A stretch of 61,357 bases of DNA, the filler included. It is 4 parts of 4 records of this genome, joined end to end, with 100 filler letters (N's around TTAATTAATTAA, not from the genome) between each part and the next. Parts side by side here need not be neighbours in the genome. Positions count along the whole stretch, not along the records: positions 11,859 to 24,017 come from SRR22947725_1568; 3 more parts are not named here. One strand, given 5' to 3'. A program made the translations under genes and the position numbers. Below, piece by piece: positions 2,366-57,421 of the stretch. The notes under the pieces were generated by a model. The model saw only the letters and a program-made list of their open reading frames with translations, was not told the origin of the DNA and ran no database searches. Each line of letters opens with the position of its first letter. The first letter of the stretch is position 1.

Positions 2366-2366
2366 T

Positions 2367-3816: not shown

Positions 3817-3819
3817 TTG

Positions 3820-5148: not shown

Positions 5149-5151
5149 ATA

Positions 5152-5562
5152 TTAGGATTTTTTCTTTATCCCATATAATTCAAGCTTGTGATCTACCAGT
5201 TTGTAGCCATATTTTTCTGCTACTTTTTTTTGAAGTTTTTCAATTTCCTCGTCTACAAATTCAATAATTTCACCTGACTTAACATCTATTAAATGATCAT
5301 GATGTCCTTCGTTCAATTCTTCATATCTTGCTTTCCCACCTTTAAATTCATGCTTAGCAAGTATTCCAGATTCTTCAAATAATTTTACAGTTCTGTAAAC
5401 GGTTGCAATACTTATCTTTGAGTCAATTTTAGAAACTCTGTTATACAATTCATCTACATTAGGATGATCAGATGATTGTGACATAACTTGTGCGATTATC
5501 TTACGTTGATCAGTTAATTTTACACCCTTTAATAAACATTTTTCCTCAATAGTTTCTGACAT
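5152..5562 (-). CDS. fur: Fur-family metalloregulator (alphaproteobacterial Fur/Mur type)
   Basis: ISIATVYRTVKLF and HHDHLID. Sensed metal cannot be determined from sequence. Confidence 0.9.
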   Translation of the reverse strand: MSETIEEKCLLKGVKLTDQRKIIAQVMSQSSDHPNVDELYNRVSKIDSKISIATVYRTVKLFEESGILAKHEFKGGKARYEELNEGHHDHLIDVKSGEIIEFVDEEIEKLQKKVAEKYGYKLVDHKLELYGIKKKS

Positions 5563-5570
5563 AATTAATT

Positions 5571-5957
5571 TTAACTTAAATAAATGGGATTAATCAAATT
5601 TTTTTTAATTTTATATTTTTTGCATAAATTAGGGATATTTTCATTTCTCAAGTCTTTTTCATCGTTAAAATCATCTAAATTATAACAGTAATAATCAATA
5701 TTTTTTGCAACATTAAAGGCTTTAACAACTGACATTGAGTTTCTAATACCAGCAAAGCTTCCTGATCCTTGATTAATATAAATCGCGTTAATATCGGTAA
5801 TTTTAATATTTTTTGATGAGAGAAAATCATTAATAATTATGGTCAATTTTTCATAATTAATTTTAGTATTCTCATGAGTAATATTATAAATATTAGCATT
5901 AGAGATGATCATTAGAAAAATTTTTTCACTAGCAGCGTCTATAACAAGTTTGTTCAT
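5571..5957 (-). CDS. tsaB: Short TsaB/YeaZ-like protein, 128 aa (start reassigned to MNKLVIDAA)
   Basis: N-terminal L-x-I-D motif and GSGSFAGIR (canonical GPGSFTGxR); usual position upstream of fur-miaB. Confidence 0.8.
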   Translation of the reverse strand: MNKLVIDAASEKIFLMIISNANIYNITHENTKINYEKLTIIINDFLSSKNIKITDINAIYINQGSGSFAGIRNSMSVVKAFNVAKNIDYYCYNLDDFNDEKDLRNENIPNLCKKYKIKKNLINPIYLS

Positions 5958-6966
5958 TTTTATTCTGTTTTTGAATTCAAATTCTATTTCAGATGAAAAT
6001 AATATCAAACACTATTCTGGGGACGAAGGTATTTTATCATTAATGTATCATCGTTTTAATGAGAATAAATACCCCTCTACCAACGTTCAAATGGATGTTT
6101 TTAAAGAACATATGAAAATAATAAAAAACTCAAATTATATTTTTTCTAATCCAAAAAATTTTGAGGAAAATTTTAGTTCACCAAAAACAAATAAAGAAAT
6201 TCTTATAACGATTGATGATGCTTTTTTATCTTTCTATCTTGAGGCATGGCCATTTTTAAAACAAAATAAAATTCCTTTTATTTTGTTTGTTTCAACAGAA
6301 CCTGTTGGAAAAAGTGGATATATGACTTGGAAACAAATTAAAGAAGTTGGGGCTGAAGAGTTCGCTGTAATAGGTCACCACTCACATTCCCATGGGTATC
6401 TTATTGACAAAGATGATAATTTTTTTATCTCAGATATAGAAAAAGCAAATGAAATATTTTTAAAAAATTTAGGATACATACCAAATTTATTTTCTTATCC
6501 TTTTGGTGAATATTCTAAATTCATGAGGGATTATATTTCTCAAAATTTTGATTATGCCTTTGGTCAGCATTCTGGTGTAATTGATTTAAATAAAGATAAA
6601 TTTGAATTACCAAGATTTCCAATTAATGAAAATTATGGGGAATTGAAAAGATTTAATTCTATTATAAATTCATTTCCACTAGAATATAAACAACTACTTC
6701 CACTAGAAAAAAAATTATCTATAGAAAATAATCCTCCAAATTTTCAAGTTAAATTTTTTAATGAACAAACTAATTTAAACAATATTAATTGTTATTCGAA
6801 TGAATTAGATATTTGGGAAAGATCCAATACAACTTTAAACGATAATACGTTAACGATAAATTTTAGAGGCCCATTTATTCCAAGAAGAGGTAGAATTAAT
6901 TGCTCATTAAATGATAATGGAAAATGGCGATGGTTTGGTGTTCAGTTTCCTATTAAGAAAAATTAA
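5905..6966 (+). CDS. Exported polysaccharide deacetylase (CE4/NodB family)
   Basis: Hydrophobic N-terminus, LMYHRF, ITIDDA, HSHSH, FSYPFGE, LPRFP. Confidence 0.9.
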   Translation: MIIRKIFSLAASITSLFIFILFLNSNSISDENNIKHYSGDEGILSLMYHRFNENKYPSTNVQMDVFKEHMKIIKNSNYIFSNPKNFEENFSSPKTNKEILITIDDAFLSFYLEAWPFLKQNKIPFILFVSTEPVGKSGYMTWKQIKEVGAEEFAVIGHHSHSHGYLIDKDDNFFISDIEKANEIFLKNLGYIPNLFSYPFGEYSKFMRDYISQNFDYAFGQHSGVIDLNKDKFELPRFPINENYGELKRFNSIINSFPLEYKQLLPLEKKLSIENNPPNFQVKFFNEQTNLNNINCYSNELDIWERSNTTLNDNTLTINFRGPFIPRRGRINCSLNDNGKWRWFGVQFPIKKN

Positions 6967-8036
6967 ATAAGACTTTCTAAATCAGAACTCGAAGGCAATA
7001 ATTTCGCATCATCAAAATCTTGTAATTTATTCTGCATGATTATTTTTTGTAAAACCTCAACATATTGATTGCCTGTTTCAGCATATTTATTTAGGTGTAC
7101 AGAAAGTTTAATACTATCTAATGGTTTTTTAGCGTCTCTTAACTCAGCTCTAGCTTTTCTAAAATGTTTATAAGTAGAATGTGTGTTTAAATTTCTTTGG
7201 TAGGCTCTTACAGATGCTTGCAAGATATTAAATTTCATTACTTTGTGATCTTCATCTTCTTTTGCCTCTTTTGGTTTTAGACCTTCACCAGACCAAGTCC
7301 ATTGTCCAAATAAAGCATTACCCTCTTGAGCAAATCTAGAAGTTCCCCAGCCTGTTTCTTTTGCTGCCTGAGCAATTGCAAGAGACACTGGTATTTCATC
7401 CATTCTTATTTTTAATGTTGATAAATCTCGAGATTTCACACCGTATTGTTTGTATTTTTTTTCGAGCCAACTTAATTCTACAGTTGTGTTATTGCTTTTG
7501 TTAATAATATTAAAAAGTGTTCTTCTATCTTTTTTAATAATGTTGTTTTCTTTTATAATTAAAGGCAAAACAATTTGTATAAAAAATTCTTTCCTTTTTT
7601 TTGTATTCTCAATCAACTTTAATTCGTTGGGCAACAATGTTAGTGCAACTGGTTTAACTAATTTCTTTTGTCTAACGTCATTAAGATTATAATCAGTTTC
7701 TTTAAACAATTTATTTATTGAAGCAGCACTTAAATAAACTGCCTCCGTCTCGCTATTATTTAAGTTATAAATATCAACCAGAACTTCTTCTTCATTTAAA
7801 GTTTCAATTTCTTTTTTATTTTTTTCTTCTTTATTAAGTGTATATGCTAAAATTTTTTTTGAATCATTCATATACTCTTTTGTATAAAAATTTTTATCTG
7901 CAAAATTAATAAATATTGGAGCAATATAGAAAAAAGAAATTGTTAAAAAACTACTTAAAAAAATTTTTAATAAATTATTTCTACTTTTTTGTTCAAATGA
8001 ATCTTGATTATTTTTCATGTTTCTAAATTGCAACAA
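6963..8036 (-). CDS. Membrane-anchored glucosaminidase-domain (Bax/GH73-like) protein; start may be the Met at 8018
   Basis: IPVSLAIAQAAKETGWGTSRFAQEGNALFGQW, NLNTH, N-terminal TM segment. Confidence 0.85.
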   Translation of the reverse strand: MLQFRNMKNNQDSFEQKSRNNLLKIFLSSFLTISFFYIAPIFINFADKNFYTKEYMNDSKKILAYTLNKEEKNKKEIETLNEEEVLVDIYNLNNSETEAVYLSAASINKLFKETDYNLNDVRQKKLVKPVALTLLPNELKLIENTKKRKEFFIQIVLPLIIKENNIIKKDRRTLFNIINKSNNTTVELSWLEKKYKQYGVKSRDLSTLKIRMDEIPVSLAIAQAAKETGWGTSRFAQEGNALFGQWTWSGEGLKPKEAKEDEDHKVMKFNILQASVRAYQRNLNTHSTYKHFRKARAELRDAKKPLDSIKLSVHLNKYAETGNQYVEVLQKIIMQNKLQDFDDAKLLPSSSDLESLI

Positions 8037-8562
8037 CTTCTTTAACTTCAGGTAAATAATGACATAAAAGATTTTGAACTCCTTGCTTTAATGTCATTGT
8101 AGAACTTGGACATCCAGAGCAACTTCCTTGTAATTGAACTTTAACTACTCCATCTTTAAATTCTTTAAATTTAATATCTCCGCCATCTCTAGCTACCGCT
8201 GGTCTTATTTTTTCATCTAAAATTTTAACTATTTTTTGCTCAAGCTCATCTAAGTTTGAGTTTTGCTCTTCTAAACTTTCATCAATGACAAATTCTTTTC
8301 CCTCAGAATAAAAATCATTAATAAATGAAATTACTATATGTTTTACTTCGTCCCATTTTATCATTTCTTTTTTATTGATAGAAATAAAGTCTTCTCCTAA
8401 AAAAATTCCCTCTACTCCATTTATAGATAATAAATTTCTAACAAGTGTATTTTGAGTTTCATCTTTACTAGTAATTTCATATGGTCCACTATTAGACACT
8501 TTTTTTCCAGGCAGAAACTTAAGCGAATTAGGATTTGGTGTAACTTCTGTTTGAACGAACAT
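8023..8562 (-). CDS. NifU/Nfu-type Fe-S cluster carrier
   Basis: TPNPNSLKF N-domain; IRPAVARDGGD and GSCSGCPSS (CxxC). Confidence 0.95.
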   Translation of the reverse strand: MFVQTEVTPNPNSLKFLPGKKVSNSGPYEITSKDETQNTLVRNLLSINGVEGIFLGEDFISINKKEMIKWDEVKHIVISFINDFYSEGKEFVIDESLEEQNSNLDELEQKIVKILDEKIRPAVARDGGDIKFKEFKDGVVKVQLQGSCSGCPSSTMTLKQGVQNLLCHYLPEVKEVVAI

Positions 8563-8614
8563 GAATTATATATAGTGAATAATTTAAAAATTAAAACTTG
8601 TTAATAAATTTTAT

Positions 8615-9616
8615 CTAAAAACCTACTATTTCTTTAATTCTTTTGATCTTTTTTGAGGATATCATATTAGCTTTTTCAACTCCTTCTAGAAGAGTATTAT
8701 CCAAATATGATTTGTCATCTAATAATTTTTTGATCTCTGTTGAAATAGGTTCAATTTTATCAACGAGTGCTTCAGATAATTTTTGTTTAAATTCTGAGAA
8801 ATTTTTACCCGCAAAATTTTCTACACTTTTTTGTAAAGTGGAATTTGTTAAGCTTGAATATATACCTAAAAGATTTTTTGCTTCTAATCTTTCATCAAGC
8901 TCTTTTGGTGTATTAGGCATTGGTAATGGATCTGTTTTTGCTTTTTTTATCTTATTTATAATTAGATCCTTATCATCAGTTAAATTTATTCTACTTAAAT
9001 CTGACAATTCAGATTTACTCATTTTCTTTGAACCATCTTTAAGGCTCATAATTCTTGAAAATTCTTTTTGGATTAAAGGCTCTGGAACCTGTAAAAAATT
9101 TTCAATTTCAAAGTCAGTATTAAACTTTTGAGCAATATCTCTACATAACTCTAAATGTTGTTTTTGATCATCTCCAACAGGAACATGGGTCGCATCATAA
9201 AGAAGAATGTCTGCTGCCATAAGAACTGGGTAAGAATAAAGACCCACACTTGCTTTTTCTTTATCTTTTCCAGCTTTTTCTTTGAATTGTGTCATTCTAT
9301 TTAGCCACCCCATTCTAGCAACACAACTTAATATCCATGCTCCTTCAGCATGAGCCGGCACTTTTGATTGATTAAAAATTATACTTTTTTTAGGATCTAT
9401 CCCACTAGCAATAAATGTGGCTACTGTTTCTTGAATATTGTTCCTTAACTCCTTAGGATCTTGTTTAACAGTGATGGCATGTAAGTCTACAACACAAAAT
9501 ATACACTCATTTTCGGTATCATTATTTAAATCTACAAAATTTTTTATGGCTCCTAAATAATTTCCTAGATGGAGATTGCCTGTGGGCTGAACACCAGAAA
9601 ATATTTTTTTACTCAT
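8615..9616 (-). CDS. trpS: Tryptophanyl-tRNA synthetase
   Basis: [28 protein letters not shown]. Confidence 0.98.
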
Positions 9617-9619
9617 AAA

Positions 9620-11149
9620 TTAATACCTTAATTTAATATCATTCATTTGAAAAGCTTTGATGAAATAACACACAATTAAATAAAATAATAATCCTAATAA
9701 TGCAGATAAAACCAAGTATAAAGATTTGATTGATTGATTGAATGCTAAATCATTTTGAAAGAAGTTTAATAAAAAGTTAAAAAATAAACCCATTAGAATT
9801 GTTGCAAATACTATTTTAATAAATTTGATAAAAAATATTTGATTGAAATAAAATAATTGTCGTTTTTTTAAAAAAATAAATAACAAAATTGAATTAAACC
9901 ATGAAGAAATAGAGGTTGCTATTGGAATTATTATAAAACCAACTTCGCTAAAATAATAAATACTAATAAAAATATTAAGTAATACAGAAATTAAAGAAAT
10001 ATAAAATGGAGTTTTCGTATCATTATTTGCAAAGAAAAAACTTGAAAAAACTTTTATCAAAGCAAAAGCGGGCAGACCTAATGCGAAATAATATAAAGCT
10101 AAACTAGAATTATTCACTGAATTTTCATTAAAAGACCCATATCCAAATAAAGCTGAAATAATTTGTTCTGATCCAATAATTAAAGCAATAGTCGCTGGCA
10201 GACTTAAAAACAAACTTAATTCAAGAGCTTTATTTTGTATGAGCAAAATCTTATTCTTTTTTCTGGATTGGATATGTTTTGAAAGCTGTGGAAGTATAAC
10301 AACTCCAATCGCAATACCAGCTATAGCTAAGTTAATTTGATAAATTCTATCCGCATAATATAAATAAGAAACTGCGCTAGCTTGAAATGATGCAATTATC
10401 GTTCCAATTAAAATATTAATTTGGGTAACTCCAGAGGAAAAAATACTTGGTAAAAGTTTTTTAAAAAAAAACTTAACTTTATCACTTGCTTTTAGTTTAA
10501 AGCTAAATTTGAGCGAGTAATATTTTGATACATATTTGTATAAAAATATAAATTGAAAAAAACCAGCTAGAGAAACACCATAAGATAAATAATAAACCAA
10601 CTGATCACCCAAAGATTTTGAAAAAATTAATACTAAAATTAAAACAATATTCAAAATTATTGGGGCCGCAGCCACAGCAGCAAACTTATTATGTGAATTT
10701 AGAATTGCAGAAAAAAATGATGCTAAACAAATAAAAAATAAGAAAGGAAATGTAATCCTTGTTAAATTTGTTGCTAACTCCATTTTTTCAAAATCACCAA
10801 CAAATCCTGGTGCAATAATTGAAACAAATAGGGGCATAAAAATCTCAATCACAATTGTTAAAAATAATAAACCTAAAAATAATAAGTTAAAAATATCGTT
10901 AGCAAATTTATTTGATTGTTTTTTTCCTTTAATTATTTCTGATGAATAACTTGGAACGAATGCTGCATTAAAAGTTCCTTCGGCAAACAATCTTCTAAAT
11001 GTATTTGGAATTCTAAACGCTACAAAGAAAGCATCAGCCAACATTCCAGTACCAAGGAAAATTGCTATTAAAATATCTCTTAAGTATCCGAGCAATCTGC
11101 TTATTATCGTAAAAAAACCAAATGTGCCTGTTGACTTAACTATATTCAT
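9620..11149 (-). CDS. murJ: Lipid II flippase MurJ
   Basis: SRLLGYLRD, AFRIPNTFRRLFAEG, YYADRIYQ; many TM helices. Confidence 0.97.
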   Translation of the reverse strand: MNIVKSTGTFGFFTIISRLLGYLRDILIAIFLGTGMLADAFFVAFRIPNTFRRLFAEGTFNAAFVPSYSSEIIKGKKQSNKFANDIFNLLFLGLLFLTIVIEIFMPLFVSIIAPGFVGDFEKMELATNLTRITFPFLFFICLASFFSAILNSHNKFAAVAAAPIILNIVLILVLIFSKSLGDQLVYYLSYGVSLAGFFQFIFLYKYVSKYYSLKFSFKLKASDKVKFFFKKLLPSIFSSGVTQINILIGTIIASFQASAVSYLYYADRIYQINLAIAGIAIGVVILPQLSKHIQSRKKNKILLIQNKALELSLFLSLPATIALIIGSEQIISALFGYGSFNENSVNNSSLALYYFALGLPAFALIKVFSSFFFANNDTKTPFYISLISVLLNIFISIYYFSEVGFIIIPIATSISSWFNSILLFIFLKKRQLFYFNQIFFIKFIKIVFATILMGLFFNFLLNFFQNDLAFNQSIKSLYLVLSALLGLLFYLIVCYFIKAFQMNDIKLRY

Positions 11150-11278
11150 AAATCATATTAGTCTTAATTTTACCCTAATTGTACAATTATTATAAGAATA
11201 TATAGATCAAATATTACAAATAATAAAAATTTTTAAAAAGAGTACAAATAAAATTGAGATTAATATAATTAAACAAAA

Positions 11279-11758
11279 ATGAAAAAAACTAACATCGATC
11301 ACTACACTGATAAAGAGGCTCTAGACTTTCATAAAAATAAAAAACCTGGGAAGATAGAGATTAATTCATCAAAAAGTATGACAACTAAGAGAGATCTTGC
11401 TTTAGCATACTCCCCAGGCGTAGCAGCTCCTGTTAGAATGATTAGCGAAAATCCTGAAGCTGCATATGATTATACAAGTAAAGGAAATTTAGTGGCTGTT
11501 ATTAGTAATGGTTCGGCAATTTTAGGAATGGGAAATTTAGGAGCACTTGCATCTAAACCAGTTATGGAAGGTAAAGCGGTACTTTTTAAAAGATTTGCAG
11601 ACATTGACTCAATTGATCTTGAAATTGATTGTTCTGATGCAGATGAAATTGTTAATTCAATAAAAAATTTTGCTCCAAGTTTTGGTGGAATAAACTTAGA
11701 GGACATTGCTGCACCTGATTGTTTTATAATTGAACAAAAATTAAAAGAAATTTTAGAT
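11279..11758 (+). CDS. maeB: NADP-dependent malic enzyme, N-terminal part (cut by contig end)
   Basis: DLALAYSPGVA, ASKPVMEGKAVLFKRFA, GGINLEDI. Confidence 0.92.
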
Positions 11759-11858
11759 NNNNNNNNNNNNNNNNNNNNNNNNNNNNNNNNNNNNNNNNNN
11801 NNTTAATTAATTAANNNNNNNNNNNNNNNNNNNNNNNNNNNNNNNNNNNNNNNNNNNN
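11759..11858. other. Artificial contig spacer (44 N + TTAATTAATTAA + 44 N)
   Basis: Identical 100-nt structure occurs three times; the 12-mer gives stops in all six frames; flanking genes are cut or unrelated. Confidence 0.99.
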
Positions 11859-11901
11859 GTTAATATGTCTAATATAATGCATTTACTTTTCATGAAAAGC
11901 T

Positions 11902-14742
11902 ATGTTTGAATTAAAAGAATCCAAAGAAATTGAATTACTAAATGTAAATGCGCAGATTTATCAGCATTCTAAATTTAATACACAACATATTCATTTAGAT
12001 TCGCCTAATGATGAGAAAGTATTTATGGTTGCATTTCGCACCATCCCAGAAGATTCAACTGGTGTGGCCCATATTTTGGAACATACTTCCTTGTGCGGTT
12101 CTGAAAAATATCCTGTCCGCGATCCTTTCTTTATGATGATCAGAAGATCATTAAATTCATTTATGAATGCCTTTACCTCAAGTGATTGGACGGCTTATCC
12201 ATTTGCAACTCAAAATAATAAAGATTTTCAGAATTTACTAGATGTTTATGTGGATTCAGCTTTTTTTCCTAAATTAGATCCATTGGATTTCTCTCAGGAA
12301 GGCCATAGGTTAGAGATTGACTCCAATCAAAATCTTGAGATAAAGGGTGTGGTTTTCAATGAAATGAAAGGTGCTATGAGCTCGCCAACAGATCAATTAT
12401 GGCACGGGATGTCAAAACACCTTTTTGAAGAAACTACCTATCATCACAATAGTGGTGGAGATCCAGAAAAGATTATTGATTTAACGCATGAGGATTTAGT
12501 TGCTTTTCATCAAAAACACTACCATCCAAGTAATGCAACTTTTTTTACATTTGGTAATGTGGTGATTGATGAAATTCATGATCATTTAGAACGGAATGTA
12601 TTTGATAAATTCACTCCAGCTTCGCAAAAGCTAGTCATTCAACCCGCTAAAATATTTACAGCTCCAGTGAGTGCTCAAGGCCTCTACCAACCCCTGCCCG
12701 GAGATGAAGACAATCATCATGTGGTTATAAGCTGGCTGATTGGAAATAGCCACGACCCCCTAAACTTATTAGAGAAGTATTTTTTGTCAAATATTTTGCT
12801 TGATAATTCATCCTCCCCTTTAAGAAAGGCTTTAGAGCAAAGTGATCTTGGGAAATCCCCTTCCCCATTTCTTGGCATTGAGCCGAGCAATAAAGAAATT
12901 GTCTTTATGGCAGGTTTAGAAGGCGTTGCTGCTGATCAAGCAAAAAATATTGAAGAACTAATTCTTACAACACTACAGGATTTAGTCAAAAATGGTGTTC
13001 CCAAGGAATTAATTTCTTCTGCACTGCATCAGCTTGAAATTGGCCAAAGAGAGATATCTGGAGGCGGAATGCCCTATGGATTGCAATTAATGCTTGGATG
13101 CATGAATGCGTGTATTCATTATGATAATCCTATATCGATGCTAGATGTAGATGAAAACTTTACCAAGCTCAAAGAAAAAATTAGCAAAGAAGGTTACATA
13201 GAAAGTCTAATTGAATCTACTTTGCTTTCAAACTCTCATCGATTAACTTACGAGCTGAAGCCTGATTCTAGCTTTAATAACAATCTTGAAGAGTATTTCT
13301 CATCTAAACTTAAAGAAAAAGAAGATACTCTTTCAGATCTAGACAAGAATAAGATTATTAAGCTTGCTGATGATCTAAAAATAAGACAAGAAGCAGAGGA
13401 TGATGCCAGCCTTCTTCCAAAGGTGACTATAGAAGACATTCCTCTCAAAAGAGAGTATTCCGAGTCAAATGAAGTAGTTGGCAATAGATCAATTTATGAA
13501 GTTGGGACCAATGGGCTGGTTTATTCAGATTTTCTGTTTCCATGCAGCAGCTTAACTAATGAAGAATTATTATTTTCATCTTTATATACATTTATTATTA
13601 CTGAAGTTGGTATCCAAGATAAATCATATGAAGAAATTCAAGCTCACCAATCAAAAATCAGTGGCGGTATAAGCGCAGCAATAAAACTTCAAACCAAAGA
13701 ATCTTCAGAGCCAGGAACATTATTTTTGAGCATTGCCTCAAAATGTCTCGAAGAAAATTTTAATGCCATGGAAGAGTTGATATTCAATACCATAAAATCT
13801 GTGAGATTCGATGAAGAGAAGAGAGTATTAGATTTATTGAATATCTTTGTTGCTAGAAATGATGAATCATTGAATCAAAATGGTCATTACCTGGCAATGA
13901 ATTCAGCGGCTAGCTCATTAAATACTTTAGCAACTACTTCTTTTCATCTATCTGGCTTGCAGATGATTCACCGCACCAAAGAATTAATTTCAAAGATTCA
14001 GCTAGACGGAGATGCCAGCTATATTATTAATATTCTTCAAAATATTCATAGCAAAGTCTCTATTCAACCACATAAAATTTTTACTGCTTGCTCAAAAGAT
14101 GCCTTAAAAAATAAATTAGAAGAGTTTGAAGCATCTCAAGCTAATCAAGAACAGCAGTTGATTGATGCGACTAAGTCTCAAATAGCCTGGATCACAGGCT
14201 CTCAAGTCTGCTACTGCGCTCAAGCTTTTGCGGGGGTGGCAAGAGAGCACCCTGATTCTGCAGCTTTGTCTGTCCTGGCAACTGTTTTAAGAAATGGATT
14301 CCTTCATACTGCAATTAGAGAAAAAGGTGGTGCCTATGGTGCTGGTGCATCAAATGACACTGCTACCAATACATTTAAATTATTTTCATATCGAGATCCT
14401 AAATGCAAAGAAACCTTTCAGGCCTTTGAAGATGCAATTTCATGGGCTAAAACCTCAATTAATGAGCAGCATTTGGAAGAAGCTATTTTGGGTGTTGTCT
14501 CTTCGATAGATAAACCGCTGTCTCCAGTTGGTGAAGCAAAAAATGATTTTAACTTCAATCTAGAGGACATCAACATAGACGATCGCCTAGCATTTAGACA
14601 AAGAATTATTAATTGCTCAATAGAGGATCTAGTCAGGGTAAATGAGAAATATCTTACCAAAGAATCTAAAAAATCAATTTTGGCCGGTGAAAGTTTTAAA
14701 GATCAGGCCGAGGAATTAAAGCTAGAGATATTAGAGGTTTAG
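11902..14742 (+). CDS. M16C (presequence protease/insulinase-type) zinc metallopeptidase
   Basis: Inverted zincin HILEH, GSEKYPVRDPFF, MNAFT, IREKGGAYG, SYRDP. Confidence 0.93.
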   Translation: MFELKESKEIELLNVNAQIYQHSKFNTQHIHLDSPNDEKVFMVAFRTIPEDSTGVAHILEHTSLCGSEKYPVRDPFFMMIRRSLNSFMNAFTSSDWTAYPFATQNNKDFQNLLDVYVDSAFFPKLDPLDFSQEGHRLEIDSNQNLEIKGVVFNEMKGAMSSPTDQLWHGMSKHLFEETTYHHNSGGDPEKIIDLTHEDLVAFHQKHYHPSNATFFTFGNVVIDEIHDHLERNVFDKFTPASQKLVIQPAKIFTAPVSAQGLYQPLPGDEDNHHVVISWLIGNSHDPLNLLEKYFLSNILLDNSSSPLRKALEQSDLGKSPSPFLGIEPSNKEIVFMAGLEGVAADQAKNIEELILTTLQDLVKNGVPKELISSALHQLEIGQREISGGGMPYGLQLMLGCMNACIHYDNPISMLDVDENFTKLKEKISKEGYIESLIESTLLSNSHRLTYELKPDSSFNNNLEEYFSSKLKEKEDTLSDLDKNKIIKLADDLKIRQEAEDDASLLPKVTIEDIPLKREYSESNEVVGNRSIYEVGTNGLVYSDFLFPCSSLTNEELLFSSLYTFIITEVGIQDKSYEEIQAHQSKISGGISAAIKLQTKESSEPGTLFLSIASKCLEENFNAMEELIFNTIKSVRFDEEKRVLDLLNIFVARNDESLNQNGHYLAMNSAASSLNTLATTSFHLSGLQMIHRTKELISKIQLDGDASYIINILQNIHSKVSIQPHKIFTACSKDALKNKLEEFEASQANQEQQLIDATKSQIAWITGSQVCYCAQAFAGVAREHPDSAALSVLATVLRNGFLHTAIREKGGAYGAGASNDTATNTFKLFSYRDPKCKETFQAFEDAISWAKTSINEQHLEEAILGVVSSIDKPLSPVGEAKNDFNFNLEDINIDDRLAFRQRIINCSIEDLVRVNEKYLTKESKKSILAGESFKDQAEELKLEILEV

Positions 14743-14743
14743 C

Positions 14744-18092
<3,349 letters not shown>

Positions 18093-18096
<4 letters not shown>

Positions 18097-21080
18097 GAAG
18101 CGGCTAATTTGAGCGCTTCCTTAACATCAACGGACACAACCCTTGAAACGCCTGCTTCCTGCATAGTGACACCCATTAAGTGATCACTTTTTTCCATCGA
18201 AATCTTGTTATGAGTAATAAAAATAAATTGGACTCTATCCGACATTTCCTCAACCATGGCAACAAATCTAGTAGCATTCAAATCATCTAATGGAGCATCG
18301 ACCTCATCTAGCAAGCAAAAAGGTGCTGGGTTTAATTCAAACAAGGCAAATACTAATGATAATGCTGTCATTGCTTTTTCTCCTCCAGAGAGCTGAGAAA
18401 TTGTTGCATTCTTTTTCCCAGGTGGCTGAGCTGTCAATGTAATTCCGGAATTAAGTGAGTCTCCTTCTAGTAATTCCAAGGCAGCTCTACCACCACCAAA
18501 TAATTTAGGGAAGATCTCTTGAATTTTAGAATTTACCGCATGAAAACTTTCATCAAACTTTAATTTAGATTCTGCGTCTATTTTCTTGATAGCACCCTGC
18601 AGTTTTTCAAGCGCCTCATTTAAATCTTCAAGCTGAGCATCTAGCTCCTCCATGCGCTGAGACTCCTCTGCAATTTCATCAGGCGCAGCTAAATTAATAG
18701 CGCCAAGTGAAATAATTTTAGCTTGAACCCCTGCAAGGGACTGCTCTAGATTGGAAATATCCATATCCTTAAACTCTTCAGGGTTGATATCTCCTATGGC
18801 AAGGCCTGCTCTTGTAAGTGCTTGCGAAGCATTATCAAGGTTAACCTCAAAGGTTCTGAAGTCTAACTTTAAATTATTTGACTGTTCCTCAAGAGCCCTA
18901 AGGTCTAATGAAGCTATAGACTTCTTGTTCTCGTTATCTCGAATAGACTCATCCACCTTAGATTGCTTTTGTCGAATTGTATTTAATTCACCCTCAGCAG
19001 AGGCACTTTTTTGAATTAAGATAGCTAGCTCTTGGTTAGCTTCATTTTTTTTCAGTTCAGTTTGTTGAAGTAACTCTGTGAGGTTATTCTGCCTAGAAAG
19101 ATACTCATCTGGTGCTGCCAAGTTAATGGATGAAAGAGCTGAAATGCTGCTTTGAATTACTGCAAGAGAATTCTCTAGGTTCGCTAGATCAAGTGAAGCA
19201 AAGTCCGATGGATTGATTTCTGAAATTTTAACCTCAGCTTTTTCTAAAATAATGGATGCATTTTCTAGATTAACCTCAAAGGTTCTAAGATCTAATTTTA
19301 AATTATTTTTTTGGGATTCCAGAGATCTCAACTCAATTGATGAGCCTGATTTCAACTCCTCAGATTTTCTGATCAACTCATTAACTTCCGATTTCTTGCT
19401 TTTATAACTATCGAGACTCCCTTCTGATTCCACCTTCTTGGCTGAAAATAATACTAACTCTTTTTCAATCTGAGATTTCTTTTCTGCTGTTTGAAGAAGT
19501 GTTTCCTCGAGTCTATTTTGTCGCTGCAAATATTCATCAGTCATACTTTTCGATTGATCAGAGGCAATCTTTAGGATGCTGGTGAGGGCTGCTTTTAACT
19601 CTAAAGCTTTAGATTTAATAGAATCGCCATTTGAGCCAAGATTACCAAGTGATTCTAAAATATTATCAAGCAAGTTCATTGCTTTTTCTTTAGGGCTTAA
19701 ATTTTCTTGATTTGACTCTTTTTCAAGCGCAGCTTGATAACTTGCTTTTGCTCTCTCTAAATCGCTTAGTGACTGAGCTTCTAATTTCTCTAAATTTTGA
19801 AGATTAGCTTCTTGCCTGGCAATATCAGTGCTGATTGAAGAAAAAGTACTCTGGGCTTCATCAAAACTTGCAGAAAGCGAAGCATGATCATTTTTAATTT
19901 TCTCAATGGTTCCTTGATGTTTTTGAACCTCGTCTGATTTAAGTAGAATACTTGATTCAAGATCATTAATTTGAATTTCTAGTTTCTGCTTTTGCTCATT
20001 AGCTTGTAGGGCCTTGAGGATAGCAATATTCAGTTTAAGTTCATTTTCTTTTGGATTTAATGTGTCGAATGACGACTCTTTCTCAATAGCCCTAGAATAA
20101 CTTTCCTTAGCGGTTGCCAGGTCAGCTTTTGTTTGTGACTCTGTCTTGCTTAAATTTTGAATATTAGCTTCATATCTAGCTATGTCTGCTCCAATCGAAT
20201 AAAAGTTTTTTTGCGCTATCTCAAAGGCCGATAAAACTGATGAGTGCTCGGTTCGAATTTGATCAATCGTTGATTGTTGAGTCTCAACCTCAGCTGACTT
20301 TACAGTAATTTGATTTGCCAAAGAGGATATCTGTGATGACAGCTTATCTTTTTGTGCCTTAGCGCTAAGACTATTTAAGATAGATATATTTAACTTTAAA
20401 TCCTTCTCTTCAATCTGAAATTTCTTATATTTTTCAGCAGCATTGGCCTGATTTTGCAGTCTATTTATCAATCGTTTAATTTCATCTCTGATGTCCAAGA
20501 CTCTTGATAGATTTTCTTTTGTTTTCTTGATTCGCTGTTCTGTTTCTTTTCTTCGTTCCTTGTATTTTGAAATGCCAGCAGCCTCCTCTATAAAGGTTCT
20601 CATCTCCTCAGGTTTGGCGCTAACAATTTTGGATACCATCCCTTGCTCAATAATTGCATAACTCCTTGGCCCGAGGCCTGTTCCTAAAAAAATGTCTTGA
20701 ACATCTTTGCGTCTGCATGAGGTATTGTTAATAGAGTAGTTAGATTGTCCATCTCTGGTCATCAATCTCTTGATGGAAATTTCATTATATTTTGCGTATT
20801 CCCCACCCAATTTTCCCATTGAGTTATCAAATAATAATTCGATGCTGCATTGACCTGAGGGTTTTCTTAAATCTGAACCATTGAAGATGACATCTGACAT
20901 AGAGTCACCTCTTAAATTTTTAGCTGAAAGTTCGCCTAAAACCCATCTCACAGCATCAATGACATTTGATTTGCCGCATCCATTGGGACCAACTACGGCG
21001 ACCATATTTGTGGGGAAAGATATCCTCGTGGGGTCCACGAAACTTTTGAATCCAGCCAGTTTAATGTGTTTGAGCTGCAT
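18093..21080 (-). CDS. smc: Chromosome segregation ATPase SMC, atypical (no recognisable hinge, duplicated arm segments)
   Basis: GFKSF, Walker A GPNGCGKSN, Q-loop IIEQG, signature LSGGEK, Walker B LLDEVDAPLD, ITHN; smc-zipA-ligA order. Confidence 0.95.
18681..19538 (-). repeat. Tandem 429-nt (143-aa) repeat in the SMC C-terminal arm (aa 515-657 and 658-800)
   Basis: DEYLxRQNxL, NNLKLDxRTFEVNLxNAS and INLAAPDE recur 143 aa apart; TTAACCTCAAAGGTTCT at 18841 and 19270; 74/143 identities by hand. Confidence 0.95.
19686..20405 (-). repeat. Tandem 360-nt (120-aa) repeat in the SMC N-terminal arm (aa 226-345 and 346-465)
   Basis: LKLNIxIL, DIARxEANxQNL and EKES...LxPKE recur 120 aa apart without gaps; 61/120 identities by hand. 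Confidence 0.95.
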
Positions 21081-21106
21081 TAAATTTATCCTTTACCCAT
21101 TTTAAA

Positions 21107-21895
21107 CTATTGTTCCTTTTTTAACCATTCGTTAGCATAAATAAATACTTGTTCTTCGTTATTTTCAGAGTACTTCAAATCAAGCGTCTTAAATATATGA
21201 AACGTATTTTTTGAACAAAAAACCACTAGTTCTAGTTGAATAATCTCCTGATATAAAAAAGCTGAGGGAAGATCGAAACCTTTGACCTGTGCATCAGATT
21301 TATCAAGCAAAAAGGTCTGGAAAAAATCTGGTGATAAAAAATCTTTTGCCGCGATATTAACATCTGGACCGTTTGGAATATTAACAACAGCGGTAAGTTT
21401 TGTAGCGTTACAACTAGCTGGCTCAGCAGCAACCAATAAAAGTTTTGCATCTCCAATTAATGGATATTTTGCATCTCTGAGATCTGAAAGTAAGCTGTAT
21501 ATAGAGACTTTAAAGCTTTGATCTTGAAAGCTCGTATTTAAGATTCCTATAATGCTTTCAGAAGAATTAAAAGATTTCATATCCAAGGACTTATAAAAAA
21601 TCTCAACCCCTAGTAAAAAAGAATCTTCTGTTGAATTCATTGCCGAAATAAATTCATTTAGAGCTAAATCTGAAACCTCGAGATCATCTTGAAGCATCTT
21701 ATATATCTGATCAGATTGATGTGCATTTGCCCATTGACCGAACAAAGGTTTTAAAGAAGTGTGATTTAAAGAAAATGCTCCTAACAATAGAATTGTTAAA
21801 AGAAAAATAAGGGGCTTCTGAGGCGAAACTGGGCTCAGCAAATAGCTAATAATAGGCAGTGAGCATAAAAATAAGACCGCAAGAAGTATCAACAT
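21107..21895 (-). CDS. Membrane protein at the ccmI position, possibly a divergent CcmI (start reassigned to ATG 21895)
   Basis: Two N-terminal TM segments; TAATG stop/start overlap with ccmH; no clear TPR motif visible. Confidence 0.5.
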   Translation of the reverse strand: MLILLAVLFLCSLPIISYLLSPVSPQKPLIFLLTILLLGAFSLNHTSLKPLFGQWANAHQSDQIYKMLQDDLEVSDLALNEFISAMNSTEDSFLLGVEIFYKSLDMKSFNSSESIIGILNTSFQDQSFKVSIYSLLSDLRDAKYPLIGDAKLLLVAAEPASCNATKLTAVVNIPNGPDVNIAAKDFLSPDFFQTFLLDKSDAQVKGFDLPSAFLYQEIIQLELVVFCSKNTFHIFKTLDLKYSENNEEQVFIYANEWLKKEQ

Positions 21896-22275
21896 TAAAG
21901 CCTTCTGTTTGATAGAAAAACTAGAATTAAAATTCCTAAAAAAATAAATGGTCCAAGCCATAATAAATAATTGGCACCTTCAAATGCTGGCTTATAGTCA
22001 GAAGAGGCTCCAAACCTATCGGTGACATAAGCTTTAATTTCTTTATCTGTAGATCCGGCAAGAATTAATTCATATACCTTTTGCTTTAAATCTCTAGATA
22101 CTGGCACATCAGAGCTAGCAATGCTCCCACTGGTGCATTTAGGGCATCTTATTTCAGATATCAAAGAATAAAACCTTTTCTCTTCTGTAGAGTTATCAAA
22201 TTCATAGATCGCATCGGCTGTAAGACAGTTAGCGAAAAAAATACAGCCAAAAAGAGCTATGGTAAGTAATTTCAT
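21895..22275 (-). CDS. ccmH: Cytochrome c biogenesis protein CcmH
   Basis: Signal peptide, IRCPKC, C-terminal LLWLGP TM segment. Confidence 0.93.
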   Translation of the reverse strand: MKLLTIALFGCIFFANCLTADAIYEFDNSTEEKRFYSLISEIRCPKCTSGSIASSDVPVSRDLKQKVYELILAGSTDKEIKAYVTDRFGASSDYKPAFEGANYLLWLGPFIFLGILILVFLSNRRL

Positions 22276-22796
22276 TGATTACCCATAGTGGCTGCGTTAA
22301 TCAAGGGAACAAGAGTGGATTGCCATTTTTCTTGATTAAGCTCTCCTTGAATATGGCCAATAATTTGCTGGTTGAATATTAAAAAAGTTTCCGGAGCTCC
22401 GGTGACTCCTAGGTCAAATGCAAGATCGCCTCTTGGATCATAAATTGAAAATATATATGGGTCTCCCCTCTTCCCAAGCCACTGCTTAGCTTTCACCTGA
22501 GAATCTTTATAATTTAAGCCTATGAGTGTAATTTCATTTTTCGATAGCTGGGTTAAAAAGGGATGTTCGACCAGACATGTAATGCACCAACTAGCCCAAA
22601 CATTCAGTAAACTAATTCCATTAAATGCAGCCAAATCAATCTCGCGATCTTCTAGGTCCTGAAGGTCAAATTGAGGAAATTCTTTTGGCTCGAAATATAC
22701 CAAAGCATCATCCTGATCAGTAATTAAAATCGCACCGTAAGTGATCAAAACTATTAATGGCAATAAAATAATTAAGGACCTATAGATTGCGTTCAT
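22272..22796 (-). CDS. ccmG: Thiol:disulfide interchange protein CcmG/DsbE
   Basis: LNVWASWCITC, NYKD, LGVTGAPETF. Confidence 0.94.
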   Translation of the reverse strand: MNAIYRSLIILLPLIVLITYGAILITDQDDALVYFEPKEFPQFDLQDLEDREIDLAAFNGISLLNVWASWCITCLVEHPFLTQLSKNEITLIGLNYKDSQVKAKQWLGKRGDPYIFSIYDPRGDLAFDLGVTGAPETFLIFNQQIIGHIQGELNQEKWQSTLVPLINAATMGNQ

Positions 22797-24017
22797 GAAA
22801 TTTTCTTTTTAAATATTGTCATTAGAATTCCAATTACCATTAAAGCAGAAGAGAGCCAAATCCACTTTATAAAATAATTAATCTGCAAGCTAAAGGTCCA
22901 GCTGCCATCGTCTAACTGATCACCTATTGTCAGGTAAGTGTCTTTTAAAATTGAAGCGTGGATAGCTGTCTCTGATGTAATCTGCCCTCTTGCAAAATAC
23001 TTTCTTTTTTCAGGATTGAGAAAAATAGGCTGTCCATCATGAACAATGAATATTTCTGCTGAAACAACATCATGATTTGAAGCCTTAATGTTTTGTAGAT
23101 CTAAAAATTTAAATTCTGAGATTGAATTATTAATAAACTGTTGCTCACCAAGAAACAAATTTATATTTTTTTGATAACTTAAAATGCTGTTCATTGACAC
23201 AGCAAAGAATAGAAGACCCAGGCCTAGATGAGCAATAAAGCTGCCTTTGTTAATATATGTCTTATTTTTTAAGGATATGGCACCTTTTAAAAGGTAGCTA
23301 ATTATTATCAATAAGCCAGAGTAAATACCTATGAAGGCAAGTAATGAGAAAATTTGTACGAAATACCAAATGAAATATAAAATTAGGCTTGATATAACAA
23401 AGGTAGGTGTTACTGCGACCAATAATGTTCGGGCTTGCATGCCCCTCTGCCATAATGCTTCTAATGAAATCATGATAAAAATAGATGTCAGAAGAATTAA
23501 TGGCGCAAAAATAGTATTGTAATAAGGAGGGCCTATGCTCACCTTATCGCCATTAATAAATTCAAGAATTAAAGGGTATGTAACACCTAAAAAGATCGAA
23601 AAAATAGCGGTTAACATCAAGATATTATTCATAGATAAAAACGACTCTTTAGAGCCAGTCACTATTAGTTTTGATGACTGCATATTTGGAAGCCTATATG
23701 CAAATATTCCGAGGGAGATAAGAGTTATAAAGCCAGAAAAACCTAATAGATATAAACCTCGCTGCGGATCATTTGCAAATGAGTGGACGCTATCAATAAT
23801 TCCTGAGCGCACTATAAACGCGCCGAATAGACTTAAGGCAAATATTAAAATACCTAAAAATAAAGTCCATGTTTTTAAAATATTAGATTTTGAGGAAGCA
23901 AAGAGTGAATGCATAAACGCTGTTGCTGCAAGCCATGGCATCAGAGCAACATTCTCGACTGGATCCCAAAACCAATATCCTCCCCAGCCAAGCTCATAAT
24001 AAGCCCACCAACTTCCA
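22793..24017 (-). CDS. ccmF: Heme lyase CcmF, 5' end cut by contig edge
   Basis: Frame stays open to the spacer: GSWWAYYELGWGGYWFWDPVENVALMPWL; also SVHSFA. Confidence 0.96.
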
Positions 24018-24117
24018 NNNNNNNNNNNNNNNNNNNNNNNNNNNNNNNNNNNNNNNNNNNNTTAATTAATTAANNNNNNNNNNNNNNNNNNNNNNNNNNN
24101 NNNNNNNNNNNNNNNNN
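24018..24117. other. Artificial contig spacer
   Basis: 44 N + TTAATTAATTAA + 44 N. Confidence 0.99.
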
Positions 24118-50714: not shown

Positions 50715-50814
50715 NNNNNNNNNNNNNNNNNNNNNNNNNNNNNNNNNNNNNNNNNNNNTTAATTAATTAANNNNNNNNNNNNNNNNNNNNNNNNNNNNNN
50801 NNNNNNNNNNNNNN
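50715..50814. other. Artificial contig spacer
   Basis: 44 N + TTAATTAATTAA + 44 N. Confidence 0.99.
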
Positions 50815-55112: not shown

Positions 55113-55216
55113 TAGTCATTGAGTTATTAGATAAAATAAGAGTAAATTATATGTCATTTGCCCTAAAAGTAACTTATATGGATCAATATTTTAATTTTAT
55201 AATTCTTAATTAATAA

Positions 55217-57405: not shown

Positions 57406-57421
57406 CAGGCTCTAATTTATC

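What the first reader, a model, noticed from the sequence alone, without database searches (positions are those of the whole stretch)
18093..21080. SMC with intact ATPase heads but no hinge domain
Seen: the 995-aa protein has all SMC head motifs and sits in the housekeeping smc-zipA-ligA order. Between the N- and C-terminal coiled coils there are only about 49 residues (aa 466-514, nt 19539-19685: KAMNLLDNILESLGNLGSNGDSIKSKALELKAALTSILKIASDQSKSMT), which read as helix-turn-helix. There is no alpha/beta stretch, no glycine-rich hinge motif and no Cys-x-x-Cys hook. Established: bacterial Smc dimerises through a globular hinge of roughly 150-180 aa, and Rad50/SbcC uses a zinc hook. Inference: this condensin either dimerises through a new helical apex (RecN-like), uses a separately encoded hinge substitute, or works without apex closure. 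Any of these would be an unusual SMC architecture.
Basis: partly seen in the sequence, partly recalled or inferred. Interest (0 to 1): 0.85.

Follow-up and report, generated by a model that had tools for sequence, protein, structure and literature searches.

The report
Hinge-less Smc condensin of SAR86
This is the ordinary chromosome-folding Smc protein of the abundant marine SAR86 bacteria, but it has lost the globular hinge that normally joins two Smc molecules and has instead a short helical cap and a doubled arm segment, making it a natural test of what the hinge is needed for.

Summary
ORF 18093-21080 (-) encodes a 995-aa Smc with intact ATPase motifs and no hinge. Pfam, a hinge profile built from 137 canonical gammaproteobacterial Smc, hhalign and two AlphaFold2 models all find only helix between aa 170 and 861.

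The gene lies on a 12.2-kb SAR86 contig (11859-24017). The window is four contigs joined by N/TTAATTAATTAA linkers, and the neighbouring contig is Ca. Actinomarina.

Compared with canonical Smc, about 480 residues (distal arms plus hinge) are replaced by a conserved ~49-aa helix-turn-helix cap.

SAR86 species carry ~732-, ~810-843- or ~995-aa forms. None of 113 matching genomes has a frame longer than 1007 aa.

ScpA, ScpB and ParB are present. No stand-alone hinge or MukB was found.

Hinge-less SMC is not unprecedented. A 2025 paper reported it in marine Actinobacteria, and I confirm it here in Ca. Actinomarina as an independent loss. The SAR86 case, its arm modules and its length classes are new as far as my searches show.

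How the apex closes is unresolved. My best guess is dimerisation through the helical cap.

The parts
18093..21080 (-). smc gene, 995 codons plus stop; hinge-less Smc of a SAR86 bacterium
   Evidence: TIGR02168 851.5 bits against a cut-off of 567.35; best PDB sequence matches are B. subtilis Smc heads 3zgx/5xg3, E 1e-106
20574..21080 (-). N-terminal half of the ATPase head (aa 1-169) with Walker A and Q-loop
   Evidence: mean column conservation 0.96
20403..20573 (-). head-proximal N-arm (aa 170-226)
   Evidence: helix; conservation 0.91
20046..20402 (-). N-arm unit A1 (aa 227-345), colinear with canonical Smc residues up to ~325-340
19686..20042 (-). N-arm unit A2 (aa 347-465), tandem copy of A1 (51% aa, 57% nt identity, ungapped); absent from the 732-aa forms
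19539..19685 (-). apex cap (aa 466-514): helix 463-479, turn 480-481, start of helix 482 onwards; conserved in both the 732- and 995-aa forms
   Evidence: hydrophobic fraction 0.46 against 0.36-0.38 in the arms
19110..19538 (-). C-arm unit B1 (aa 515-657), tandem copy of B2; absent from the 732-aa forms
18681..19109 (-). C-arm unit B2 (aa 658-800), colinear with canonical Smc from residue ~835 on; 52% aa and 56% nt identical to B1
18096..18680 (-). head-proximal C-arm and C-terminal half of the head (aa 801-995) with signature motif, Walker B and H-loop
17485..18096 (-). zipA (203 aa, short form), immediately downstream
   Evidence: ZipA_C E 2.3e-13; below the NCBIfam cut-off; found next to smc in 20 of 23 SAR86 loci
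15330..17483 (-). ligA, NAD-dependent DNA ligase
   Evidence: found in 18 of 23 SAR86 loci, the other 5 being cut by contig ends before ligA
21107..21961 (-). 284-aa ORF with two predicted N-terminal membrane helices, always directly upstream of smc in SAR86; function unknown
11859..24017 (.). the SAR86 contig that carries the gene, bounded by artificial linkers

Best explanation
SHOWN. This is the orthologous housekeeping Smc of a SAR86-clade gammaproteobacterium. Its head tree places it inside canonical gammaproteobacterial Smc. It keeps the smc-zipA-ligA position, and related SAR86 genomes keep scpA, scpB and parB and have no MukB. Relative to canonical ~1165-aa Smc, the protein is colinear from residue 1 to about 325-340 and again from about 820-835 to the end. 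The ~480 residues in between (hinge-proximal arms plus globular hinge) are gone. A conserved ~49-aa helix-turn-helix cap stands in their place. The minimal version is the 732-aa form found in many SAR86 species. In this lineage an inner arm module has been added by tandem duplication on both strands of the antiparallel coiled coil (A2, 119 aa; B1, 143 aa). This brings the N-terminal arm helix to about 310 aa, against 330 aa cited for B. subtilis Smc.

INFERRED. The complex still works as a ParB-loaded Smc-ScpAB loop extruder using the head-to-mid-arm 'core'. Two Smc hairpins are held together at the far end by the cap, most likely as a small four-helix bundle formed by the unusually hydrophobic cap helices. 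This gives the closed ring that engineered hinge-less SMCs need. What is lost is the hinge channel or gate. The duplicated arm module would re-enlarge the lumen.
For: Identity as Smc: TIGR02168 scores 851.5 bits against a cut-off of 567.35. The top PDB matches are Smc heads, and none of the 57 hits is a hinge entry. In the N-head tree the six SAR86-type proteins form one side of a branch (92/89) among canonical gamma Smc.

No hinge: Pfam finds none at E<=1. A hinge HMM built from 137 canonical relatives scores 144-196 bits in 4 positive controls and -21 bits in P0001. hhalign of the Smc profile against the hinge profile gives probability 0.9%. The AF2 full-length model and the fragment model (pLDDT 88.5) are all-helical.

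Duplications: E 8e-36 and 2e-45, and 51-52% aa identity ungapped.

The cap is shared by the 7 long and 17 short forms, with 19 columns at least 90% conserved.

Lineage-wide: in the SAR86 order 113 of 121 genomes have a match. By my count of the listed rows, the open frames fall at 729-759 (41 genomes), 809-843 (54) and 998-1007 (14). Four more are fragments or unlisted, and none is longer.

Partners: scpA and scpB are adjacent in 4 of 4 SAR86 genomes. ParB is present in 4 of 4. Only one SMC-type gene is present besides recF and ABC ATPases. MukB is over its cut-off in 0 of 61. No stand-alone hinge was found.

Reality: the 120 listed database entries are all 995 aa at 98-100% identity, on contigs up to 412 kb. 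20 of 21 full-length SAR86 loci have intact frames. Metatranscriptome contigs of two studies cover 30/30 and 26/30 bins with no joints or indels.

Mechanistic precedent, from sections of the papers that I read: a JetC 'core' with the elbow-to-hinge segment replaced by 9 residues still acts on plasmid DNA, but only when it is covalently dimerised (PMC12647877, section 10). The B. subtilis hinge can be replaced by a Rad50 zinc hook (PMC5344682, passages).

The cap helices are 46% hydrophobic against 36-38% in the arms.
Against: Nothing here shows that the cap dimerises. The cap is no more conserved than the arm units (0.75 against 0.77 mean column conservation). It has no cysteine. Foldseek finds only generic helical hairpins, none at E<=0.001. 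Hydrophobicity is a weak argument. The window's own assembly is not held, so scpAB and parB were seen only in related SAR86 genomes, the nearest being 95% identical in DNA over the contig. Public DNA contigs could hardly be laid on the gene, so there was no read-level check of the window's own sample. RNA contigs do not prove transcription. The full-length AF2 model has pTM of only 0.33 with a shallow alignment of 24 sequences.
Confidence: 0.55

Rival explanations
1. Open apex. The cap is only a hairpin turn. Two Smc hairpins are held together solely by ATP-engaged heads, the ScpA bridge and side-by-side arm contacts, so the complex works as a clamp or V without a closed SMC compartment.
For: The cap is no better conserved than the arms. 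No dimerisation fold was recognised. ScpA and ScpB are retained and could bridge the heads.
Against: The engineered hinge-less JetC core lost activity when its apex disulfide was reduced (PMC12647877, section 10, read). About 49 residues with 19 columns at least 90% conserved and a broadened hydrophobic face are more than a turn needs.
Confidence: 0.25
2. A non-homologous partner closes or replaces the apex. One candidate is the SAR86-specific membrane protein encoded directly upstream (21107-21961); another unlinked gene is also possible.
For: The upstream ORF is found next to smc in 22 of 23 SAR86 loci and in 0 of 45 loci of canonical relatives.
Against: It has two predicted membrane helices and no recognisable family. 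Adjacency alone is weak evidence. No test of binding was made.
Confidence: 0.08
3. Domain-swapped dimer. The N-arm of one chain pairs with the C-arm of the other, giving a rod with a composite head at each end instead of two hairpins.
For: Without a globular hinge nothing obvious forbids intermolecular antiparallel pairing. The matched units A1/B2 and A2/B1 would pair equally well in trans.
Against: AF2 folds the fragment 405-570 as an intramolecular hairpin with pLDDT 88.5 and a tight turn at 480-481. Heads at opposite ends could not be bridged by one ScpA.
Confidence: 0.05
4. The protein no longer acts as a condensin and has been repurposed, for instance as a RecN- or SbcC-like repair ATPase.
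For: Loss of the hinge makes it resemble hinge-less SMC-like proteins in outline. Some database records name it RecF or 'AAA family ATPase'.
Against: RecN TIGR00634 scores 34 bits against a cut-off of 408, and the Rad50 models are far below their cut-offs. There is no CxxC. The gene keeps the smc position and the genome keeps scpAB and parB, with no other SMC or MukB to do the condensin job.
Confidence: 0.04
5. Assembly or gene-calling artefact: a hinge-coding segment was collapsed out, or the gene is a decaying pseudogene.
For: The window is a binned, concatenated record of mixed origin. One related locus (L043) has frameshifts.
Against: The same 995-aa length appears in all 120 listed independent entries. 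Single-cell genomes and a 1.19-Mb contig carry the same forms. The repeats share exact words of at most 11 and 17 nt, too few to collapse. 20 of 21 full-length loci are intact. The heads are 94-96% conserved.
Confidence: 0.02

Closest known systems
Canonical bacterial Smc of Smc-ScpAB (e.g. B. subtilis Smc; ~1165-aa gammaproteobacterial Smc at smc-zipA-ligA loci)
   Same: Same descent: ~50-54% identity over residues 1-~325 and over the last ~300-330 residues, and a head tree nested among them. Same head motifs, same locus, and the same partners scpA, scpB and parB.
   Different: The hinge, present at aa 495-~685 in 24 of 24 canonical relatives tested, and the distal arms are missing. A 49-aa helical cap stands in their place. 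The arm modules are duplicated.
'Hinge-less' SMC clade of marine Actinobacteria (Environ Microbiome 2025, PMC12153180; abstract passages, section 15 and discussion passages read; three supplement files searched for words only)
   Same: Same overall architecture: Smc-type head, antiparallel coiled coil, no hinge, no CxxC. Also abundant in ocean metagenomes. Here it is identified with Ca. Actinomarina (names): the Pfam hinge is found in 0 of 65 genomes and 62 of 65 carry an 881-912-aa SMC; the custom hinge HMM scores 0.1 bits.
   Different: A different phylum and an independent loss: the two hinge-less groups sit on opposite sides of a 100/100 branch, each nested in hinge-bearing kin. The paper does not name SAR86 in its main text or in the supplements searched, and it reports no arm duplication or length classes.
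Engineered hinge-less SMCs: ecJET(core), with the JetC elbow-to-hinge segment (aa 348-686) replaced by a 9-residue linker (PMC12647877, sections 10 and 13 read); and B. subtilis Smc(Zh) and Mini-Smc (PMC5344682, passages read)
   Same: The 732-aa SAR86 form is laid out like the engineered 'core': head to mid-arm (colinear to ~aa 325-340) plus a short connector. These papers show that such a core, or a foreign dimeriser, can support function.
   Different: The engineered core needed an added disulfide to stay dimeric. The natural protein has no cysteine there, and how it closes is unknown. Also JetC is a Wadjet defence SMC, not the housekeeping Smc.
RecN (recalled from memory: short coiled coil, dimerises through the coiled-coil apex)
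   Different: TIGR00634 scores 34 bits against a cut-off of 408. The arms here are about 300 aa, not short, and the partners are scpAB. RecN's mode of dimerisation is recalled, not tested here.
Rad50/SbcC zinc-hook proteins
   Same: A long antiparallel coiled coil ending in a small non-globular apex.
   Different: No CxxC: the cysteines are only at 35, 78, 122 and 922. The Rad50 NCBIfam models score 29-51 bits against cut-offs of 700-1087.
MukB / MukBEF
   Same: A condensin in Gammaproteobacteria with a reduced, channel-less hinge (stated in PMC12647877, section 13).
   Different: The MukB domain PF04310 is over its cut-off in 0 of 61 SAR86 genomes. The heads here are Smc-type, and MukB does keep a globular hinge.

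Membership tests
Smc (Smc-ScpAB condensin) | ABC-type SMC head with Walker A, Q-loop, signature motif, Walker B and H-loop | tested here: met
   Motifs read and invariant; SMC_N E 6.8e-55; PDB Smc heads E 1e-106
Smc (Smc-ScpAB condensin) | Scores above the curated equivalog threshold (TIGR02168 SMC_prok_B) | tested here: met
   851.5 bits against 567.35, in 4 stretches
Smc (Smc-ScpAB condensin) | Long intramolecular antiparallel coiled-coil arm | tested here: met
   AF2: helix from 170 to 861 with short breaks; hairpin with its turn at 480-481, pLDDT 88.5. Predicted only, not measured
Smc (Smc-ScpAB condensin) | Globular hinge dimerisation domain (PF06470) between the arms | tested here: not met
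   It is therefore filed as a hinge-less derivative of Smc by descent, not as a canonical member
Smc (Smc-ScpAB condensin) | Kleisin ScpA and kite ScpB encoded in the genome | tested here: met
   Present and adjacent in 4 of 4 related SAR86 genomes. The window's own assembly is not held
Smc (Smc-ScpAB condensin) | Homodimer that forms a closed ring and entraps or extrudes DNA | not testable with these tools
   Needs biochemistry
Hinge-less SMC of marine Actinobacteria (PMC12153180) | Member of the monophyletic actinobacterial clade | tested here: not met
   The head tree puts P0001 with gamma Smc, separated from the Actinomarina group by a 100/100 branch. Same kind of architecture, not the same clade
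RecN | TIGR00634 equivalog score; ~550 aa with a short coiled coil | tested here: not met
   34.4 bits against 407.85; 995 aa
Rad50/SbcC | CxxC zinc hook at the apex | tested here: not met
   No cysteine between aa 123 and 921
MukB | MukB N-terminal domain PF04310 | tested here: not met
   Not among the Pfam hits of P0001; over its cut-off in 0 of 61 SAR86 genomes

The most novel reading that the evidence does not exclude
Two of the most streamlined and abundant marine bacterioplankton lineages, SAR86 and Ca. Actinomarina, have independently cut the housekeeping Smc down to its loop-extruding 'core'. In SAR86 a ~49-aa helix-turn-helix cap would be a new, minimal SMC dimerisation module that does the one job of the hinge that is indispensable, namely ring closure. 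The hinge gate for obstacle bypass would be dispensable in these slow-growing oligotrophs. Arm length would then be retuned in discrete steps by adding or dropping a matched pair of coiled-coil modules, giving the 732, ~810-843 and 995 aa classes.
Probability: 0.35. Interest if true: 0.8.

Novelty: new variant of a known kind. Interest (0 to 1): 0.66.

Why it matters
What the SMC hinge is for is a live question: dimerisation only, DNA binding or loading, or a gate for bypassing obstacles. Engineered hinge replacements and a 'core-only' Wadjet SMC suggest that only ring closure is essential for loop extrusion. SAR86 offers natural, strongly conserved, order-wide housekeeping Smc proteins built that way, in three arm lengths and with ScpAB and ParB intact. 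They are ready-made reagents. One can test whether a 49-aa helical cap can close an SMC ring, whether such a complex extrudes loops, whether it bypasses obstacles, and how arm length is tuned. The independent loss in Ca. Actinomarina suggests a link with genome streamlining or slow growth in the oligotrophic ocean. It also warns annotators: these proteins are often labelled 'AAA family ATPase' or 'RecF' in public records.

Tried and rejected
1. Complex prediction with two copies of aa 405-570 gave no answer: score 0.08 against a mark of 0.32, controls not run, my alignment not used. It counts neither for nor against apex dimerisation.

2. Foldseek of the apex-fragment model against the PDB gave nothing at E<=0.001. 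The weak rows are generic helical hairpins (chemoreceptor hairpins, Smc arm fragments, p85 iSH2) and no hinge.

3. Read laying: the two DNA runs gave contigs in only 2 and 3 of 30 bins, and the tool says a filter drops records. So there was no read-level check of the DNA, and the holes mean nothing.

4. Searches of the window's 'own' genome were not possible because the assembly is not held. I used the nearest held genome and genomes reached through loci instead.

5. At first I took the sharp loss of similarity at 11859 and 24017 for a chimeric assembly or a genomic island. Reading the junctions showed artificial linkers. A tRNA scan of the window found none.

So the source organisms of the library proteins P0125-P0128, P0174, P0236 and P0246 are inferred only from trees and from the lengths seen in SAR86 genomes.

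7. The protein atlas gave nothing usable for the upstream ORF.

8. I considered whether the second cap helix plus 'DEY' is a remnant third copy of the end of the B unit. The resemblance is visible by eye, but the B-unit HMM did not report a third copy at E<=1e-3, so I left it as an idea.

9. I looked for a single-event origin of the matched duplication (nested insertion, or tandem duplication of a contiguous block). None reproduces the order A1-A2-cap-B1-B2, so two events seem to be needed. This remains unexplained.
Full report
WHAT IS AT THE COORDINATES. The minus-strand ORF 18093-21080 encodes 995 aa. Pfam sees one SMC_N match spanning aa 3-979 and no SMC_hinge even at E<=1. NCBIfam TIGR02168 (SMC_prok_B) scores 851.5 bits against a cut-off of 567.35. 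All head motifs are present and invariant among relatives. Downstream on the same strand lie a short zipA (203 aa) and ligA.

THE WINDOW IS A CONCATENATION.
- The nearest held genome, G001, matches window 24118-50714 at 98-100% DNA identity and nothing else.
- SAR86 loci match only 11859-24016. The best is L034, at 95.4% over 12.2 kb.
- Reading the junctions shows linkers of N44-TTAATTAATTAA-N44 at 11759-11858, 24018-24117 and 50715-50814.
- The window is thus four contigs of one bin.
- The smc contig is SAR86 by the record titles of its close relatives.
- The next contig is Ca. Actinomarina by the names attached to near-identical proteins.
- Gene context beyond 11859-24017 therefore says nothing about smc.
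- The window's own assembly is not held, so genome-wide questions were asked of related SAR86 genomes G302-G305, reached through loci.

THE HINGE IS ABSENT. Five independent tests agree.
1. Pfam finds no hinge. This test alone is weak, because it also missed the hinge of a canonical 1164-aa relative, P0130.
2. A hinge HMM that I built from 137 canonical gammaproteobacterial Smc scores 144-196 bits in four positive controls, P0130 among them. It scores -21 bits in P0001 and at most 1 bit in the other short forms. It finds the hinge at aa 495-~685 in 24 of 24 canonical loci.
3. hhalign of the SAR86 Smc profile against the hinge profile gives probability 0.9%.
4. Of 57 PDB sequence matches, the best are Smc heads and none is a hinge entry.
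5. AlphaFold2 gives only helix from aa 170 to 861 (pLDDT 72, pTM 0.33, shallow alignment). For aa 405-570 it gives a confident hairpin (pLDDT 88.5) with helices 406-459, 463-479 and 482-569 and a turn at 480-481.
In addition there is no cysteine between aa 123 and 921, hence no zinc hook.

ANATOMY. Against canonical ~1165-aa relatives, the short SAR86 forms are colinear over residues 1 to ~325-340 and from ~819-866 (depending on the relative) to the end; the long form P0001 is colinear over 1 to ~321-327 and from ~836-875 to the end. So about 480 canonical residues, the distal arms plus the hinge, are replaced by the cap.

The cap is shared by long and short forms, and 19 of its columns are at least 90% conserved. 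Its helices are richer in hydrophobic residues than the arms: 0.46 against 0.36-0.38. Overall, though, it is not better conserved than the arm units (0.75 against 0.77).

- aa 227-345 (A1) repeats as 347-465 (A2), E 8e-36;
- aa 515-657 (B1) repeats as 658-800 (B2), E 2e-45;
- each pair is 51-52% identical in protein and 56-57% in DNA, without gaps;
- the unit junctions (aa 331-343 and 644-656) are the low-confidence, non-helical breaks of the model, so the long arm probably has a flexible joint half-way (inference);
- with the extra module, the N-terminal arm helix is about 310 aa, against the 330 aa cited for B. subtilis Smc in PMC12647877, section 13.

DISTRIBUTION AND HISTORY.
- Of 23 SAR86-type loci among species representatives, 5 carry intact 995-aa genes and 15 carry intact 732-aa genes. 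One (L043) is frameshifted and two are cut by contig ends.
- The 732-aa forms lack exactly A2 and B1 and keep the cap.
- In a sample of 121 genomes of the SAR86 order, 113 have a match. By my count of the listed rows, the open frames fall into three classes: 729-759 aa (41 genomes), 809-843 aa (54) and 998-1007 aa (14). Four more are fragments or unlisted. None is longer (59 further match rows were not listed).
- Unit trees put the inner units on one side of a branch (A2 90/84; B1 100/99). The single units of the short forms group with the outer units, in two to three separate places.
- The simplest reading is one old duplication per arm, followed by repeated paired losses or by exchange of alleles.
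- I found no single event that yields A1-A2-cap-B1-B2. How both strands change in step is unexplained.

PARTNERS.
- scpA and scpB are adjacent in 4 of 4 SAR86 genomes.
- parB is present in 4 of 4.
- PF02463 finds a single SMC-type gene besides recF and ABC ATPases.
- MukB is over its cut-off in 0 of 61 genomes.
- The hinge profile, which scores E 4.9e-68 in a control genome, finds nothing at E<=1 in 3 SAR86 genomes. In the order it gives one chance-level hit: E 0.006, 32 residues in a 40-aa frame, among 121 genomes.
- The order P0004-smc-zipA-ligA is kept in SAR86 loci wherever the contig reaches.
- The upstream 284-aa ORF with two predicted membrane helices is not found at 45 canonical loci.

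IS IT REAL?
- All 120 listed database entries are 995 aa at 98-100% identity, from several sources and on contigs up to 412 kb.
- Single-cell genomes and a 1.19-Mb contig carry the same forms.
- The repeats share exact words of at most 11 and 17 nt, so assembly could neither create nor collapse them.
- Thirteen DNA runs from at least nine studies hold at least 93% of the gene's sampled words. Six metatranscriptome runs hold about a third.
- RNA contigs of two studies cover 30/30 and 26/30 bins with no joints or indels. This is consistent with transcription but does not prove it.
- In both RNA runs the listed contigs stop at 19545-19557 and resume at 19594 or 19645, inside the cap region. I take this for strain variation breaking the contigs, but I did not test it.

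PRIOR ART AND INDEPENDENT LOSS. Five full-text searches found one report of natural hinge-less SMC: PMC12153180. I read its section 15 and passages, and searched three supplement files for words only. It describes an abundant oceanic actinobacterial clade with AlphaFold-predicted hinge-less SMC and no CxxC. It does not name SAR86 or Actinomarina in the main text or in the supplements searched.

Here that clade is most likely Ca. Actinomarina:
- the Pfam hinge is found in 0 of 65 genomes of G001's family;
- 62 of 65 have an 881-912-aa SMC;
- the custom hinge HMM scores 0.1 bits;
- scpA, scpB and parB are present in G001.

An N-head tree nests each hinge-less group inside hinge-bearing relatives of its own class, on opposite sides of a 100/100 branch. 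The two losses are therefore independent.

Three genomes of the class sample are flagged unpublished. No claim here rests on them.

HOW IT MOST LIKELY WORKS. Shown: an Smc by descent, with intact ATPase and with partners, lacking the hinge and the 'periphery'. The rest is inferred from the literature I read.
- A JetC 'core', with its elbow-to-hinge segment replaced by nine residues, still processes plasmid DNA but cannot bypass obstacles. It loses activity when its engineered apex disulfide is reduced (PMC12647877, section 10).
- The B. subtilis hinge can be swapped for a Rad50 zinc hook. Arm length is constrained in steps of roughly 100 aa (PMC5344682, passages).

The 732-aa SAR86 Smc looks like a natural 'core'. 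If ring closure is indeed required, the conserved, hydrophobic cap is the obvious candidate to provide it, probably as a four-helix bundle. The A2/B1 module of the 995-aa form would restore a near-canonical lumen without restoring a hinge gate. I put about 0.55 on this. The main rival, at about 0.25, is an apex that stays open. The computational test of apex dimerisation gave no verdict.

VERDICT. The finding is real and robust. It is not categorically new, because hinge-less SMC has been described once, in another phylum. It is a new, independent and better-resolved variant: order-wide in SAR86, with a defined cap, matched arm-module duplication and discrete length classes. It bears directly on the current debate about the role of the SMC hinge.

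Noticed in passing
window 11759-11858, 24018-24117, 50715-50814: Artificial linkers (N44-TTAATTAATTAA-N44) join four contigs. Contig 11859-24017 is SAR86 (Gammaproteobacteria), while 24118-50714 is 98-100% identical to a Ca. Actinomarina genome (Actinobacteria). The source bin therefore mixes phyla. Contigs 1-11758 and 50815-61357 (GC ~0.26-0.32) were not assigned.
   Followed up: partly
L003:6600-9263 (G001 contig 15) and G001's family: Ca. Actinomarina also has a hinge-less Smc (888 aa in G001; 881-912-aa frames in 62 of 65 genomes; Pfam hinge in 0 of 65; custom hinge HMM 0.1 bits), with scpA, scpB and parB present. This matches the hinge-less actinobacterial clade published in 2025, which was not named there as Actinomarina.
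   Followed up: partly
SAR86-order genomes G302-G423; library proteins P0128 (810 aa), P0236 (827 aa): A third, most frequent SAR86 length class of ~809-843 aa exists (54 of 113 genomes by my count). It also lacks a hinge by the custom HMM. Its arm and cap anatomy was not dissected.
   Followed up: no
library protein P0174 (906 aa): A gammaproteobacterial-type Smc with no hinge by the custom HMM (-33 bits). In the head tree it groups not with SAR86 but with short hinge-bearing forms (P0170, 990 aa). It may be a third independent loss, or a faulty record. Its organism is unknown.
   Followed up: no
library proteins P0155 (1003 aa), P0170 (990 aa), P0183 (1071 aa): Short-armed gammaproteobacterial Smc proteins that keep a hinge at about aa 406-604. 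An overall length near 1000 aa therefore does not by itself mean hinge loss.
   Followed up: partly
window 21107-21961 (-): A 284-aa ORF with two predicted N-terminal membrane helices and no recognisable family. It lies directly upstream of smc in 22 of 23 SAR86 loci and is not found at 45 canonical gammaproteobacterial smc loci.
   Followed up: partly
window 17485-18096 (-): zipA is very short (203 aa). It matches ZipA_C, but the whole protein scores below the NCBIfam ZipA cut-off (34 against 119.65 bits). This fits genome streamlining. Its called TTG start overlaps the end of smc.
   Followed up: no
L043 (a SAR86 MAG locus), smc at 8001-10199: This 732-type smc has 17 in-frame stops in the first reading frame, that is, frameshifts. 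It is the only broken copy among 21 full-length loci. Sequencing error or a true pseudogene was not resolved.
   Followed up: no
window 19545-19645: Listed metatranscriptome contigs from two studies both end at 19545-19557 and resume at 19594 or 19645, inside the cap-coding region. There are no loose ends or joints there. This may be strain microdiversity at the cap.
   Followed up: no
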